64,000 nt of DNA. Source: Eledone cirrhosa. Its lineage: Eukaryota. The stretch spans positions 1,108-65,107 of the forward strand of contig CAXHJY010001660.1 in the NCBI GenBank assembly GCA_964016885.1, written 5' to 3'. The translations under genes and the position numbers were made by a program. Below are positions 12,383 through 58,311 of the stretch, in pieces. The stretch's first letter is position 1. Every line of letters begins with the position of its first letter. The notes beneath the pieces were generated by a model. That model had not been told where the DNA came from and made no database searches. It worked only from the letters and a program-made list of their open reading frames with translations.

Positions 12383-12433
12383 GGCTTCCTGATGATTTCT
12401 CCCGAATGAAACAGTTCTAGTCCTGTAGAAGCC
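12383..12433 (+). ncRNA. Type I hammerhead ribozyme motif, family A
   Basis: ggcttc-CTGATGA-t-ttc(tccc)gaa-t-GAAA-cag(ttctagtc)ctg-TA^-gaagcc: all three stems pair and the core is complete. Confidence 0.75.
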
Positions 12434-13201
12434 TTTTCTATATTAAATATATATATATATATATATATATATATATATATATATATATATATATATATAT
12501 ATATCTGTGCTCTCTGAAGACGTGCGAAAAATAAGTGTGGCATATTGAACAATATATATTACTAGCCAACACCAACAATTTTGCAAGAAATGTCAACATG
12601 AATGGACCTGTTATTTTTATCTAAACACATTTTCTACAATTCCAACCCACCCATCCTCCTCAATCTATATTATTTCTCATGATGAAGGACTAGCGTTCGA
12701 AACGTTAAGACCCTCTTCCTGCTATATCAATCGTTAACCTAATATTTCCCTTCCATATACTGTACCGATTGTGTTGTTATTTCTGTTTACCTTTTACATA
12801 TGTATATATGTAATATAATCTGCACTCCCTGAAGACGTGCGAAAAATAAGTGTGGCATATGTTTGAACAATATATATGATAGTCAGCATATGTAGACTAT
12901 TATGATAGACATAGAAACATATGCTAAAGCCACTAACTCCTTCTACTAACACCTCTCGCCGAAGTCTATATTTTTTCATGGTATTACACTTACTTATATT
13001 ATATGCTCCGTGATCTCTTCTGGACCTAAATACCATATTCTCCTGCTTGGATACTTATGATAAACGAAGGATACCGTCGAGTCAAACACTCTGGTAAGCA
13101 GATATCTTGTATAAGCATTCATTCTTGATATACATACACGAAACCTTATCTATCCTCCACACACACACACACGCACACGCACACGCACACGCACACACAC
13201 G

Positions 13202-13413
13202 GTGGGTCAGAATTCATCATGATTCACTTGATTGTTTATAGATCTATTAACACAAAATGTTATAAAACAATTTAAGGAATATAATACCATATACAGGCAT
13301 AACATCATGAACGAGATACGATAAGCACACAAATGTACACATTTAATTAATGCGCAATAAAATAAGCATATTAAGAAATATAACTAACAAGCGAGTTATG
13401 AATTCTGGCCCAC
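13202..13413. mobile_element. MITE-like element
   Basis: TIR gtgggtcagaattcat / atgaattctggcccac, embedded in CA repeats. Confidence 0.55.
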
Positions 13414-13529
13414 ACACACACACACTCACACGCACGCACACGCACACGCGCGGGTTCAATCGGGGGGTAATCACAGTATAAATATTTAATATAGAAAAGA
13501 CTTCTACAAGACTAGAACTGTTTCATTCG

Positions 13530-13580
13530 GGTTTCCTGATGATTTCTCCCGAATGAAACAGTTCTAGTCCTGTAGAAGCC
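13530..13580 (+). ncRNA. Type I hammerhead ribozyme motif, family A
   Basis: Same fold; stem I ggtttc/gaagcc contains one wobble. Confidence 0.7.
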
Positions 13581-13685
13581 TTTTCTATATTATATATATA
13601 TATATATATATATATATATATATATAATCTGCGCTCTGTGAAGACGTGCGAAAAATAAGTGTAGCATATTGAACAATATATATTA

Positions 13686-16600
13686 CTAGCTGACCCGTCA
13701 GGCTGGTGCCCGGCTACCATTGGCGCGTTTTACGGCAAAGCCGTTTGTGTAGTATAGTATTACTGTTGAAAATATATAGTATAGTATTACTGTTGAAAAT
13801 GTATAGTATAGTATTACTGTTGAAAATATATAGTATAGTATTACTGTTGAAAATATATAGTATAGTATGACTGTTGAAAATATATAGTATAGTATGACTG
13901 TTGAAAATATATAGTATAGTATGACTGGTTAAAATATATAGTATAGTATGACTGTTGAAAATATATAGTATAGTATGACTGTTGAAAATGTATAGTATAG
14001 TATGACTGTTGAAAATATATAGTATAGTATGACTGTTGAAAATGTATAGTATAGTATTACTGTTGAAAATATATAGTATAGTATTACTGTTGAAAATATA
14101 TAGTATAGTATTACTGTTGAAAATATATAGTATAGTATGACTGTTGAAAATATATAGTATAGTATTACTGTTGAAAACATAGAATAGTATTGCTGTTGAA
14201 AATATATAGTATAGTATTGCTGTTGAAATAATATAGTATAGTATTACTGTTGAAAATATATAGTATAGTATGACTGTTGAAAATATATAGTATAGTATTG
14301 CTGTTGAAAATATATAGTATAGTATGACTGTTGAAAATATATAGTATAGTATGACTGTTGAAAATATATAGTATAGTATTACTGTTGAAAACATATAGTA
14401 TAGTATTACTGTTGAAAATATATAGTACAGTATTACTGTTGAAAATATATAGTAGAGTATGACTGTTGAAAATGTATAGTATAGTATTACTGTTGAAAAT
14501 ATATAGTATAGTATTACTGTTGAAAATATATATTATAGTATGACTGTTGAAAATATATATTATAGTATGACTGTTGAAAATATATATTATAGTATGACTG
14601 TTGAAAATGTATAGTATAGTATTACTGTTGAAAATGTATAGTATAGTATTACTGTTGAAAACATATAGTATAGTATGACTGTTGAAAACATATAGTATAG
14701 TATTACTGTTGAAAATATATAGTATAGTATTACTGTTGAAAACATATAGTATAGTATTACTGTTGAAAATATATAGTATAGTATGACTGTTGAAAATATA
14801 TAGTATAGTATGACTGTTGAAAATGTATAGTATAGTATTACTGTTGAAAATGTATAGTATAGTATTACTGTTGAAAATATATAGTATAGTATTGCTGTTG
14901 AAATAATATAGTATAGTATTACTGTTGAAAATATATAGTATAGTATGACTGTTGAAAATATATAGTATAGTATTGCTGTTGAAAATATATAGTATAGTAT
15001 TACTGTTGAAAATATATAGTATAGTATTACTGTTGAAAATATATAGTATAGTATTACTGTTGAAAACATATAGTATAGTATTACTGTTGAAAATATATAG
15101 TATAGTATTACTGTTGAAAATATATAGTATAGTATTACTGTTGAAAACATATAGTATAGTATTACTGTTGAAAATATATAGTATAGTATTACTGTTGAAA
15201 ATATATAGTATAGTATTACTGTTGAAAATATATAGTATAGTATTACTGTTGAAAATATATAGTACAGTATTACTGTTGAAAATATATAGTATAGTATTAC
15301 TGTTGAAAACATATAGTATAGTATTACTGTTGAAAATATATAGTATAGTATTACTGTTGAAAACATATAGTATAGTATTACTGTTGAAAATATATAGTAT
15401 AGTATGACTGTTGAAAATATATAGTATAGTATTACTGTTGAAAACATATAGTATAGTATTACTGTTGAAAATATATAGTATAGTATTACTGTTGAAAATA
15501 TATAGTATAGTATTACTGTTGAAAATATATAGTATAGTATTACTGTTGAAAATATATAGTATAGTATTACTGTTGAAAATAATAGTATAGTATTGCTGTT
15601 GAAAATATATAGTATAGTATTGCTGTTGAAAATATATAGTATAGTATTATTGTTGAAAATATATAGTATAGTATTGCTGTTGAAAATATATAGTATAGTA
15701 TTATTGTTGAAAATATATAGTATAGTATTACTGTTGAAAATATATAGTATAGTATTATTGTTGAAAATATATAGTATAGTATTGCTGTTGAAAATATATA
15801 GTATAGTATTGCTGTTGAAAATATATAGTATAGTATTACTGTTGAAAATATATAGTATAGTATTACTGTTGAAAATATATAGTATAGTATTACTGTTGAA
15901 AATATATAGTATAGTATTACTGTTGAAAATATATAGTATAGTATTGCTGTTGAAAATATATAGTATAGTATTGCTGTTGAAAATATATAGTATAGTATTA
16001 CTGTTGAAAATATATAGTATAGTATTACTGTTGAAAATATATAGTATAGTATGACTATTGAAAATATATAGTATAGTATTACTGTTGAAAATATATAGTA
16101 TAGTATTACTGTTGAAAATATATAGTATAGTATTACTGTTGAAAATATATAGTATAGTATTACTGTTGAAAATATATAGTATAGTATGACTGTTGAAAAT
16201 ATATAGTATAGTATGACTGTTGAAAATATATAGTATAGTATGACTGTTGAAAATATATAGTATAGTATGACTGTTGAAAATATATAGTATAGTATGACTG
16301 TTGAAAATATATAGTATAGTATGACTGTTGAAAATATATAGTATAGTATGACTGTTGAAAATATATAGTATAGTATTACTGTTGAAAATATATAGTATAG
16401 TATGACTGTTGAAAATATATAGTATAGTATGACTGTTGAAAATATATAGTATAGTATGACTGTTGAAAATATATAGTATAGTATGACTGTTGAAAACATA
16501 GTATAGTATGACTGTTGAAAATATATAGTATAGTATGACTGTTGAAAATATATAGTATAGTATTACTGTTGAAAATATATAGTATAGTATGACTGTTGAA

Positions 16601-56183: not shown

Positions 56184-56572
56184 TACCCAACTACACCTCT
56201 CAAAGTCAATGACACACGACCGTGACTTCTGGCGTCACGCAGTAATACAGGGTACCCGACCTCCCATGGGTACATGCTGAAGCATATAAACAATATGTCC
56301 CCCCCCCCCCACCGCAAGGTGGTCGTGGAGGTGCCACGGCAAAAAAAGCACCCAGCCCCACACTGTAAAGTGGACGTGTAGGCGCCACGAAAAAGCACCC
56401 AGCACTCACTGTAAATGAGGTTGGTGTTAGGAAGGGCATCCAGCTGTAGAAATCAAGCCAGATCAGTTCCTGTATGAGCAAGGCATGGTCAGCCGACCAG
56501 ACACTGCCCACAACAGGACAACCCGTCTAACCCATGCTAGCGTGGAAGAACGGACGTAAAACGGTGATGATG
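56183..56572 (+). mobile_element. RTE-like 3' fragment plus SINE body ending in (GAT)n
   Basis: [13 protein letters not shown] end and gaagggcatccagctgtagaaa motif; homologous to 348-520. Confidence 0.6.
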
Positions 56573-56661
56573 ATATATATATATATATATATATATATAT
56601 ATATATATATATATATATATATACATATATATATATATATATATATATATATATATATACA

Positions 56662-56710
56662 CATTCCTGATGATTTCTAATTAATGAAATAGTTCTAGTC
56701 CCGTAGAATC
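56662..56710 (+). ncRNA. Degenerate family A hammerhead
   Basis: Core CTGATGA and GAAA retained, but stems II and III carry mismatches. Confidence 0.45.
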
Positions 56711-57995
56711 TCATCTATATTAAAACTTTTATACTCTGCTATGTATTGAGTACTTTACTTACTGTGGTTACCTCCGATTCAACCCGGAATAACGTATATA
56801 TATATACATATATATATATATATGTATATATACATATATATATATATATATATACACATATATATATATATATACACATATATATATATATATATACACA
56901 TATATATATATATATATATATACACATATATATATACATATATATATATATACACATATATATATATATATACATATATATATATATATACACATATATA
57001 TATATATATATACATATATATATATACACACATATATATATATATATATACATATATATATATATATATACACACAAATATATATATATATATATATATA
57101 TATATATATATATACATATATATATATATACATATATATATATATACATATATATATATATACATATATATATATATATATATATATATATACATATATA
57201 TATATATACATATATATATATATACATATATATATATATACATATATATATATATATATACATATATATATATATACATATATATATATATACATATATA
57301 TATATACATATATATATATATATATATATATACATATATATATATACATATATATATATATACATATATATACATATATATATATTCATATATATATATA
57401 TATATATATACACACATATACATACACATATATATATATATATATATATATATATATATACGCATATACATACACACATATATATATATATATATATACA
57501 CATATATATATATATATATATATATATATATATATAAACATATATATATATATATATATATATATATAAACATATATATATATATATATATATATATATA
57601 CACATATATATATATATATACACATATATATATATATATACACATATATATATATATATATATATATACACATATATATATATATATACACATATATATA
57701 TATATATATATATATACACATATATATATATATATATACACATATATATATATATACACATATATATATATATACTATATATATATATACACATATATAT
57801 ATATATACACATATATATATATATATATATATATATATATATATATATATACACATATATATATATATATATATATACACATATATATATATATATATAT
57901 ACACATATAGTACGTTATTCCGGGTTGAATCGGAGGTAACCACAGTAAGTAAGGTACTCAATACATAGCAGAGTATAACAGTTTTAATATAGATG

Positions 57996-58046
57996 AGATT
58001 CTACAGGACTAGAACTGTTTCATTCATTAGAAATCATCAGGAATCT
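57996..58046 (-). ncRNA. Type I hammerhead ribozyme motif, family A
   Basis: Minus strand: agattc-CTGATGA-t-ttc(taat)gaa-t-GAAA-cag(ttctagtc)ctg-TA^-gaatct. Confidence 0.75.
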
Positions 58047-58257
58047 GGGTATCACGCCATCCAGAACCTGTTTATAGAAATCTGTCTGCCTTTGTTACTC
58101 TAAAAACATAAATAAATATAAATTAACTATAGCTATGTAGAATTAGCTTTTAATGAATTCCCTTCTCTATCAACCAATGACCTGCACCCATCCCACTCCC
58201 CACCCTCTCCTACCACTTGTAGAGACCTATAAATACCATATTTATTTTTTGATACCC

Positions 58258-58311
58258 AGATTCCTGATGATTTCTTCTAATGAATGAAACAGTTCTAGTC
58301 CTGTAGAATCT
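58258..58311 (+). ncRNA. Type I hammerhead ribozyme motif, family A
   Basis: agattc/gaatct stem I, intact core, 3-nt duplication confined to loop II. Confidence 0.72.

What the first reader, a model, noticed from the sequence alone, without database searches (positions are those of the whole stretch)
12383..58311. Family of full type I hammerhead ribozymes with compensatory stem changes, embedded in fold-back repeats
Seen: four intact copies (12383+, 13530+, 57996-, 58258+) and two decayed ones (about 10889-, 56662+) of stemI-CUGAUGA-stemII-GAAA-stemIII-UA^-stemI'. Stem I is ggcttc/gaagcc in the 12-13 kb copies but agattc/gaatct in the 58 kb copies, i.e. two paired substitutions. Stem II (ttc/gaa) is constant while its loop changes (tccc, taat, ttctaat). 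Caveat: the 5' strand of stem I at 12383/13530 lies at an inversion junction. Established: Penelope-like elements carry hammerheads in their terminal repeats, usually minimal ones with a palindromic stem III. Here stem III is a true hairpin (ACAG/CUGU, 8-nt loop), so it could cleave as a monomer. Inference: a short (about 140-180 bp) non-coding ribozyme-bearing retroelement family living in (TA)n/(CA)n tracts.
Basis: partly seen in the sequence, partly recalled or inferred. Interest (0 to 1): 0.8.

Follow-up and report, generated by a model that had tools for sequence, protein, structure and literature searches.

The report
Ribozyme-tipped stubs of a Penelope transposon
These hammerhead-shaped repeats are short end-pieces of a protein-coding Penelope-like jumping gene, present in tens of thousands of copies, and their sharp ends suggest that they were likely copied from the very start of a capped, uncut transcript, often as head-to-head pairs, while self-cleavage by the predicted ribozyme remains untested.

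Summary
The four intact and two decayed type I hammerhead motifs are there as described. They are not a separate non-coding family. The same motif sits 137 nt before a 713-aa RT + GIY-YIG frame with Hydra-clade motifs (L033), and a 27-nt core occurs 27,663 times in the genome. Hammerheads in Hydra elements are published, with the same U-U closure of stem II and ACAG/CUGU stem III. New here: (1) loop 3 is 8 nt and palindromic, so a dimer (-12.8 kcal/mol) is predicted over the hairpin (-1.4). (2) 5' ends pile up at the first base of stem I (45 of 100 within 12 nt), 30 nt after a TATA box, often with an extra G (70 of 100; native C), the signature of a copied cap. (3) Ends are not enriched at the cut site (35 against 25 control). 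(4) Head-to-head pairs are tail + no-tail in 39 of 43. At 12383 and 13530 the fold-back would trap the ribozyme. Cleavage and expression are untested.

The parts
12271..12384 (-). Tail-bearing inverted arm (subfamily B), stopping in loop 2, so without the CUGAUGA half
12382..12447 (+). No-tail arm: G12382 (extra G and/or GGG/CCC microhomology with the other arm), stem I 12383-12388, CUGAUGA 12389-12395, stem II 12396-12407, GAA 12408-12410, stem III 12411-12426, H17 12427, stem I' 12428-12433
   Evidence: native base before stem I is C
13451..13531 (-). Inverted arm of the locally duplicated insertion, with part of the tail deleted
13529..13592 (+). Duplicate of the 12382 arm; hammerhead 13530-13580, H17 13574, one G-U in stem I
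57910..58054 (-). Tail-bearing arm (subfamily A); hammerhead 57996-58046, H17 58002; 100% identical over 145 nt to L043, the 5' end of an ORF-bearing copy
58056..58327 (+). No-tail arm with about 200 nt of pseudo-LTR upstream; hammerhead 58258-58311 (loop 2 has a 3-nt duplication), H17 58305
   Evidence: 97.4% to L043 over 272 nt
58174..58178 (+). CCAAT box of the predicted pseudo-LTR promoter
   Evidence: sequence; shared by native copies; function inferred
58228..58235 (+). TATA box, 30 nt before the first base of stem I (58258, predicted transcription start)
   Evidence: sequence; offset 29-31 in 77 of 82 copies
56660..56794 (+). Single tail-bearing stub in (TA)n, starting near the stem I edge; stems II and III damaged
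10808..10937 (-). Decayed tail-bearing arm (core CTGGTGG, GAT for GAA)
10938..10964 (+). Stub of the partner arm of the 10.8 kb fold-back
21074..21106 (-). Tail tip only (subfamily B)
1..169 (-). Start of the 3' UTR of another subfamily A copy, truncated just after the ORF stop and running off the window into microsatellite-rich UTR
   Evidence: (100% over 169 nt to L033)

Best explanation
The motifs are end-pieces of a protein-coding Hydra-type Penelope-like retrotransposon, likely made when its reverse transcriptase starts just inside a capped, uncut transcript and runs off the 5' end, which is predicted to be the first base of a hammerhead whose self-cleavage is untested. Shown: the full unit is promoter-like DNA, hammerhead, 137 nt, RT + GIY-YIG ORF, 1.5-3.7 kb microsatellite-rich 3' UTR, then the same promoter and hammerhead. 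Shown: stubs share two 3' ends (about +15 to +22, no tail, and +91 to +94, tail, counted from the cut site), one 5' edge at stem I, a frequent extra G there, and tail + no-tail pairing. Inferred: Pol II starts 30 nt after the TATA box. The element's protein nicks (TA)n DNA on both strands and primes from the two internal sites, one per strand. Each cDNA runs 65-135 nt to the cap and copies it as an extra base, and end-joining fuses the two cDNAs head to head or joins one to the target. Longer copies such as 57910-58327 arise when the same sites are used in the downstream repeat. Inferred: cleavage, if it occurs, most likely needs a dimer or protein help and acts on RNA that is not the integration template, for example removing the 45-nt capped leader to limit or regulate the transcript.
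For: Full element L033 with 758-codon open frame; 16 of 150 scored matches 100% identical over 155 aa; ribozyme upstream of 25 of 30 ORF loci. Hydra motifs DKT, CxCX5C, CxxC, CxH and RW[K/R]. 5' ends of the first 100 of 12,082 tail matches: 45 at -46..-35, 2 at -69..-47, 24 run through the promoter, 13 at -33..-6, 7 at -5..+3, 9 beyond +3 (edge p 6e-19). TATA offset 29-31 in 77 of 82, where the pattern allowed 24-40. Base between an AT run and stem I in subfamily B: G 70, T 15, A 10, C 5 of the first 100 of 111, against native C in 96 of the first 100 of 782; cDNA snap-back would give T or A in this subfamily. An extra G marks capped full-length L1 insertions (PMC11702581, passage). AT-flanked starts: 318 at stem I, 35 at the cut site, 25 at a control TA|G site. 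Pairs: 39 tail + no-tail, 4 no-tail + no-tail, 0 tail + tail of 43, against 21.3 mixed expected. A sister family at 51% protein identity shows the same edge 29 nt after its TATA-like box (16 of 44 at 0/+1). An anole PLE protein cuts and extends both strands, starts at two internal sites that define the tail, and prefers unprocessed RNA (PMC11167929, parts 1-2).
Against: No RNA data: no RNA holder was listed, so the start site and cap are read from DNA only. In subfamily A the extra G can also come from cDNA snap-back on stem I or from microhomology with the other arm (6 of 20 G junctions; G 48, C 20, T 23, A 9; L286 shows a templated extension). An RT may add an untemplated base at any RNA end. 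The edge decays over about 12 nt, and some ends lie upstream (L033 begins about 4-7 nt earlier). A CAG just at the edge could be a 3' splice site in subfamilies A, C and E. One tail + tail pair exists outside the counted set (L284). Samples are the first matches along the largest contigs, not random draws, and two apparent duplicate pairs were left. No tree with published Hydra sequences was built.
Confidence: 0.8

Rival explanations
1. An independent non-autonomous element (SINE-like or retrozyme-like) of 140-180 bp, transcribed from its own copies and cleaving as a monomer.
For: Short copies outnumber ORF copies about a thousandfold (depth 1.7 million at the ribozyme against 1.1-2.4 thousand at the ORF start in run X2). 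Animal retrozymes are reported as PLE derivatives (10.64898/2026.07.22.740005, abstract and passages).
Against: Stubs begin downstream of the TATA box and so lack the promoter. They match the 5' end of ORF copies at up to 100% and follow the same subfamilies. They are head to head, not tandem: no array of this unit was found in the window. Fold-backs are predicted to trap the ribozyme.
Confidence: 0.06
2. The 5' edge marks RNA processing (a splice junction or trans-splicing at the CAG) or an RT stop at stem I, not a transcription start.
For: CAG at -46..-44 after a pyrimidine-rich stretch in subfamily A. In Drosophila virilis Penelope an intron ends at helix I (PMC4209133) and the promoter is internal (PMC8557442).
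Against: Splicing would put the edge at -43 and bring in an upstream exon; none is seen. Subfamily B has CGG there and still shows the edge and the extra G. An RT stalls at the 3' side of a helix, not after its 5' strand (own knowledge). The sister family without a hammerhead core has the same edge at TATA+29.
Confidence: 0.1
3. The ribozyme is catalytically dead or incidental, and the segment is conserved as a protein-binding, dimerisation or promoter-proximal signal.
For: No excess of ends at the cut site. Weak fold: probability of the hammerhead structure 0.001-0.03. U-U closure. 0 of 44 copies of the mobile sister family have CTGANGA within 30 nt upstream of their GAAAC, yet they keep a palindromic stem III-like hairpin. 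Ribozyme mutants of the anole element still insert in vitro.
Against: The core is kept across families about 70% identical in protein while loop 2 and the TATA spacer diverge. The one core position that differs between families is N7, the free position of hammerheads (T 69, A 13 of 82). Two stem I pairs change on both sides. An axolotl hammerhead with the same U-U closure cleaves 22% in an hour as a monomer and better as a dimer (PMC7229834, passage).
Confidence: 0.25

Closest known systems
Hydra clade of Penelope-like elements (Craig et al. 2021, PMC8557442), including Hydra-1_Obim of Octopus bimaculoides
   Same: Single RT + C-terminal GIY-YIG ORF with DKT, CxCX5C, CxxC and CxH motifs; (TA)n insertion; type I hammerhead. 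CTGATGAT...TGAA (U-U closure) occurs in many Hydra magnipapillata families, and ACAG/CTGT stem III in Hydra-1_aMil, Penelope-1_NV, Penelope-1_SK and Penelope-2_SK (supplementary file S2).
   Different: Loop 3 is 8 nt with a central palindrome, against 1-3 nt in all listed Hydra ribozymes. The unit is 3.8-6.0 kb because of a microsatellite-rich 3' UTR, against generally under 3 kb. Ribozyme and protein differ from Hydra-1_Obim (by eye). The tail is about 70 nt, against 30-40.
Poseidon element PAc of Anolis carolinensis (Frangieh et al. 2024, PMC11167929)
   Same: Two internal RT start sites downstream of the hammerhead define the optional tail; AT-rich targets cut on both strands; unprocessed RNA is the dominant template.
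   Different: A different clade. There the ORF begins inside the ribozyme, here 137 nt after the cut. In the parts read (1 and 2 of 4) it reports no start site at the ribozyme, no cap-derived G, and no tail/no-tail pairing count.
Minimal PLE hammerheads (Cervera and de la Pena 2014, PMC4209133) and non-LTR retrozymes (PMC7229834)
   Same: Type I topology, palindromic helix III region suited to dimers, thousands of dispersed single copies attributed to truncated PLEs, some pairs on opposite strands 100-700 bp apart.
   Different: Here helix III can also close as a 4-bp hairpin, helix II is short (3 bp) without G10.1-C11.1, and copies are not tandem arrays.

Membership tests
Type I hammerhead ribozyme | Core CUGANGA / GAAA / UH with three helices, open stem I | tested here: met
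   (93.8% of cells paired in 41 distinct copies)
Type I hammerhead ribozyme | Covariation of the helices | tested here: inconclusive
   two stem I pairs change on both sides (16 and 5 copies; 0 of 500 shuffles), but these are two inherited events; stems II and III show no two-sided change; R-scape was not run
Type I hammerhead ribozyme | G10.1-C11.1 closing pair of stem II | tested here: not met
   U-U in 81 of 82 copies. The same closure is listed for published Hydra ribozymes and for an axolotl one that cleaves, so it lowers 'canonical', not 'works like'.
Type I hammerhead ribozyme | Match to an Rfam hammerhead model | tested here: not met
   none at E up to 10 on 57910-58335; none among the 150 rows shown of 393
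Type I hammerhead ribozyme | Self-cleavage after H17 | not testable with these tools
   needs an in vitro assay or raw RNA reads; none available
Penelope-like element | Single ORF with RT and C-terminal GIY-YIG nuclease | tested here: met
   P0001 has YRDDG and IVY...TYIG; Pfam GIY-YIG E 0.019, below cut-off, and no Pfam RT hit; 1,199 homologues at about 40-54% identity for the best 120
Penelope-like element | Pseudo-LTRs with hammerhead, inverted 5'-truncated copies, optional tail | tested here: met
Hydra clade | DKT, CxCX5C linker, CxxC and CxH around the conserved E and N | tested here: met
   SDKT, CNCLNKEAC, CDLC, CMH in P0001 against the definition
Hydra clade | RWK motif | tested here: inconclusive
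   RWR in P0001 and in 2 of 11 aligned homologues, RWK in the other 9
Hydra clade | Insertion into (TA)n | tested here: met
Hydra clade | Generally shorter than 3 kb (a tendency in the paper, not a strict criterion) | tested here: not met
   5,966 bp between ribozymes in L033; 3.8-4.6 kb in five family E copies
Hydra clade | Placement in the clade by RT phylogeny | not tested
   compared by eye only with the paper's alignment
Non-LTR retrozyme | Head-to-tail tandem units each with a hammerhead, no coding partner in cis | tested here: not met
   copies are single or head to head and continue into an ORF

The most novel reading that the evidence does not exclude
The palindromic stem III is an RNA pairing site that joins two capped transcripts in one RT-nuclease complex, so both strands of a (TA)n cut are primed at once, one from each internal start site. 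This would explain the inverted repeats and one-sided tails of Penelope-like elements, and why a sister family keeps the palindrome after losing the catalytic core; cleavage would be secondary.
Probability: 0.2. Interest if true: 0.78.

Novelty: new variant of a known kind. Interest (0 to 1): 0.5.

Why it matters
That Hydra-type elements carry hammerheads is known, so the headline is not new. What this family adds is a very large natural record of insertion products that bears on two open questions named in PMC8557442: what the ribozyme does, and how inverted repeats and tails form. The record says the template is uncut RNA starting at the ribozyme's first base, and that paired arms use different start sites. 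It also supplies intact, recently copied ORFs for an in vitro system from a clade for which my searches found no biochemical study, and a natural comparison with a sister family lacking the core.

Tried and rejected
DNA search of the genome with the 140-nt unit returned nothing because common words are skipped; exact patterns were used instead. Rfam gave only microsatellite-driven miRNA noise. No RNA holder listed; the three runs laid are contigs of unknown kind and say nothing on expression or RNA ends. No solved structure matched the protein profile. Three look-ups of earlier scan findings were empty. Rejected: stem I as an inversion artefact (native in L106, L120); a peak of 5' ends at the cut site (7 in 9 nt against 13 in 28 nt, p 0.19; 35 against 25, p 0.25); four independent intact insertions (two events). 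No PLE ORF lies in the window itself. No covariance model was built, since the family differs at too few sites for it to add. The host species was not determined. The paper by Lunse and colleagues on dimeric PLE hammerheads (recalled) did not appear and was not read; it may list similar loop 3 variants. Supplements of the bioRxiv preprint and of PMC4209133 were not seen and may bear on novelty.
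Full report
Observation. A descriptor scan of both strands found the four intact motifs at the stated places, and BLAST found the two decayed ones. A 27-nt stretch of the core has 27,663 exact matches in the 3.0-Gb genome and none for the reversed control. The stem I of the 12-13 kb copies is native, because L106 and L120 carry it behind normal upstream DNA. 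The copies at 12383 and 13530 share junction, a private substitution and flank, and are one insertion duplicated; 57996 and 58258 are two arms of one insertion. Stem II closes with U-U. The isolated motifs fold no better than shuffles, and Rfam does not recognise them.

What it belongs to. Two same-strand core matches 5,966 bp apart (L033) enclose a 758-codon open frame, 713 aa from the first Met, which lies 137 nt after the cut site. [quoted passage not shown] It shows the DKT, CxCX5C, CxxC and CxH motifs that define the Hydra clade (PMC8557442 section 11) and agrees by eye with the Hydra rows of that paper's alignment. Of 150 scored genome matches to its first 155 residues, 16 are 100% identical and 18 lie in a 758-codon frame, so the family was copied recently. 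The ribozyme lies upstream in 25 of the 30 best loci. A related family E at about 70% protein identity has the same ribozyme with changes. The 3' UTR is 1.5-3.7 kb and 30-74% alternating dinucleotide repeat in eight copies measured (two more could not be measured).

Ribozyme anatomy. In 82 promoter-preceded copies the core is nearly invariant (partly imposed by the search pattern), N7 is T or A by family, loop 2 varies at all four positions and loop 3 varies mainly at one. In the 41 distinct sequences 93.8% of cells pair and two stem I pairs change on both sides; these are two inherited events, and stems II and III show no two-sided change. Published Hydra ribozymes have the same U-U closure and, in four families, the same ACAG/CTGT stem III, but loops of 1-3 nt (supplementary file S2). 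Here loop 3 is 8 nt with a central CUAG. The hairpin is worth -1.4 kcal/mol and the duplex of two copies -12.8 (12 of 16 pairs); family E's change extends the palindrome (-15.2, 14 of 16). A central 4-nt palindrome has a 1 in 16 chance by itself, so this is suggestive only. At 12383 and 13530 the upstream arm pairs with the ribozyme in a hairpin of about -69 kcal/mol, so those copies are not predicted to cut a transcript that reads through them.

Where the copies start. For the first 100 of 12,082 exact tail matches I mapped the 5' end relative to the cut (stem I starts at -45): 24 run through the promoter region, 2 lie at -69..-47, 45 at -46..-35, 13 at -33..-6, 7 at -5..+3 and 9 beyond +3; 39 of the 46 copies at -52..-34 have an inverted arm. 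A TATA box precedes stem I by 29-31 nt in 77 of 82 copies although the spacer differs between families, with CCAAT and CACCC boxes further up (motif names from own knowledge). Between an AT run and stem I, subfamily B has G in 70 of the first 100 of 111 matches, while the native base is C in 96 of 100 and snap-back would give T or A. Subfamily A gives G 48, C 20, T 23, A 9, but there snap-back and microhomology can also supply G. An extra G at full-length 5' junctions is read as a copied cap for L1 (PMC11702581, passage). AT-flanked starts number 318 at stem I, 35 at the cut site and 25 at a control site with the same TA|G context. A sister family F (51% protein identity) has its own edge 29 nt after a TATA-like box, 16 of 44 copies at 0/+1, and none of the 44 has CTGANGA within 30 nt upstream of its GAAAC; these copies were met by chance in fetched loci.

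Where they end, and how they pair. Subfamily A 3' ends cluster at +15 to +22 (27 of 52) and +91 to +94 (20 of 52), microhomology included. Among 43 head-to-head pairs from 120 ribozyme-anchored loci, 39 are tail + no-tail, 4 no-tail + no-tail and none tail + tail, against 21.3 mixed expected if arms were independent (p 5e-8). One tail + tail pair was seen outside this set (L284), and five pairs are joined with both arms complete around a single central A or T. Craig et al. note that the tail is often at one end only. The anole protein cuts and extends both strands from two internal sites and prefers unprocessed RNA (PMC11167929).

Mechanism. Shown: the element's anatomy, the two 3' ends, the 5' edge, the extra G, the pairing rule and the lack of cut-site ends. 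Inferred (about 0.8): transcription starts at the first base of stem I; the RT primes on nicked (TA)n DNA at start sites lying only 65-135 nt from the cap, runs off and copies the cap; two such products, one per strand, are joined head to head. This accounts for the roughly thousandfold excess of stubs over ORFs (run of unknown kind). The ribozyme is probably functional in some setting (about 0.7), given the pattern of conservation and the cleaving axolotl motif with U-U closure (PMC7229834, passage), but cut RNA is not what integrates. Rivals are an independent short element (0.06), a splice or stall edge (0.1), and a dead ribozyme kept for another role (0.25, compatible with the rest of the model).

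Novelty. Hammerheads in Hydra elements, including one from an octopus, are published, and dispersed single and opposite-strand copies were already tied to truncated PLEs (PMC4209133). I found no report of a start site at the ribozyme's first base, a cap-derived G, or a count of tail pairing in PLEs in searches (listings) and in the passages read; this library lacks most subscription papers. A 2026 Octopus vulgaris repeat paper has no occurrence of 'hammerhead', 'ribozyme' or 'Hydra' (PMC13282606, term search). Papers seen: PMC4209133 parts 1-2 of 4; PMC8557442 section 11, passages, supplement parts 1, 2, 58 of 59 and two supplement searches; PMC11167929 parts 1-2 of 4; 10.64898/2026.07.22.740005 part 1 of 5 and passages; PMC6765202, PMC7229834, PMC11702581, PMC11371274, PMC13282606 passages only. 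Verdict: a new variant of a known kind, with a useful mechanistic record; interest 0.5.

Noticed in passing
L071:5010-7860; window 24928-25051: Sister Hydra-like family F (51% protein identity). Same TATA spacing, 5' edge and tail/no-tail fold-backs, but the 5' half of the hammerhead core is missing in 44 of 44 copies, while GAAAC, a 5-bp stem with a palindromic loop and a following C remain. Either a degenerate or an unrecognised ribozyme variant. A fragment lies in the window.
   Followed up: partly
L033:1400-4660; window 1-169: The element carries 2.7-3.7 kb (family A) or 1.5-2.5 kb (family E) of 3' UTR rich in (TA)n/(TG)n, with shared landmarks between copies, so it may spread microsatellite-rich DNA, including its own target.
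   Followed up: partly
window 8694-8736 (-): Minimal type I hammerhead of another repeat family, with palindromic ACTAGT helix III; seen in several other loci.
   Followed up: no
window 60635-60673 (-) and 60757-60795 (+): Head-to-head pair of a third hammerhead family with palindromic AGTACT helix III, inside a fold-back of about 300 bp within the long (TA)n region.
   Followed up: no
window 12505-12566, 12818-12877, 13629-13690 and about 12672-12715: Three copies of a short repeat with CTGAAGA...GAAA, and a decayed copy of a further minimal-hammerhead family whose intact form occurs in L325 and L371.
   Followed up: no
L001, L005, L006, L007, L013, L021: A separate high-copy repeat has captured the ribozyme segment with C3 changed to A and no stem I; 6 of the first 30 core matches belong to it, so the 27,663 count includes such passengers.
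   Followed up: partly
window 13750-19300 and 45174-62292: A 27-bp minisatellite of 206 copies and a 17-kb (TA)n-rich region.
   Followed up: no
window 10564-10637 (+), 38612-40600 (+), 62384-64000 (-), 43640-43712 (+): A probable small exon with AG/GT ends, a long open frame without Pfam match, a LINE-type RT frame (PF00078), and a tRNA-like match above Rfam's threshold. The 12-13 kb copies may lie in an intron.
   Followed up: partly
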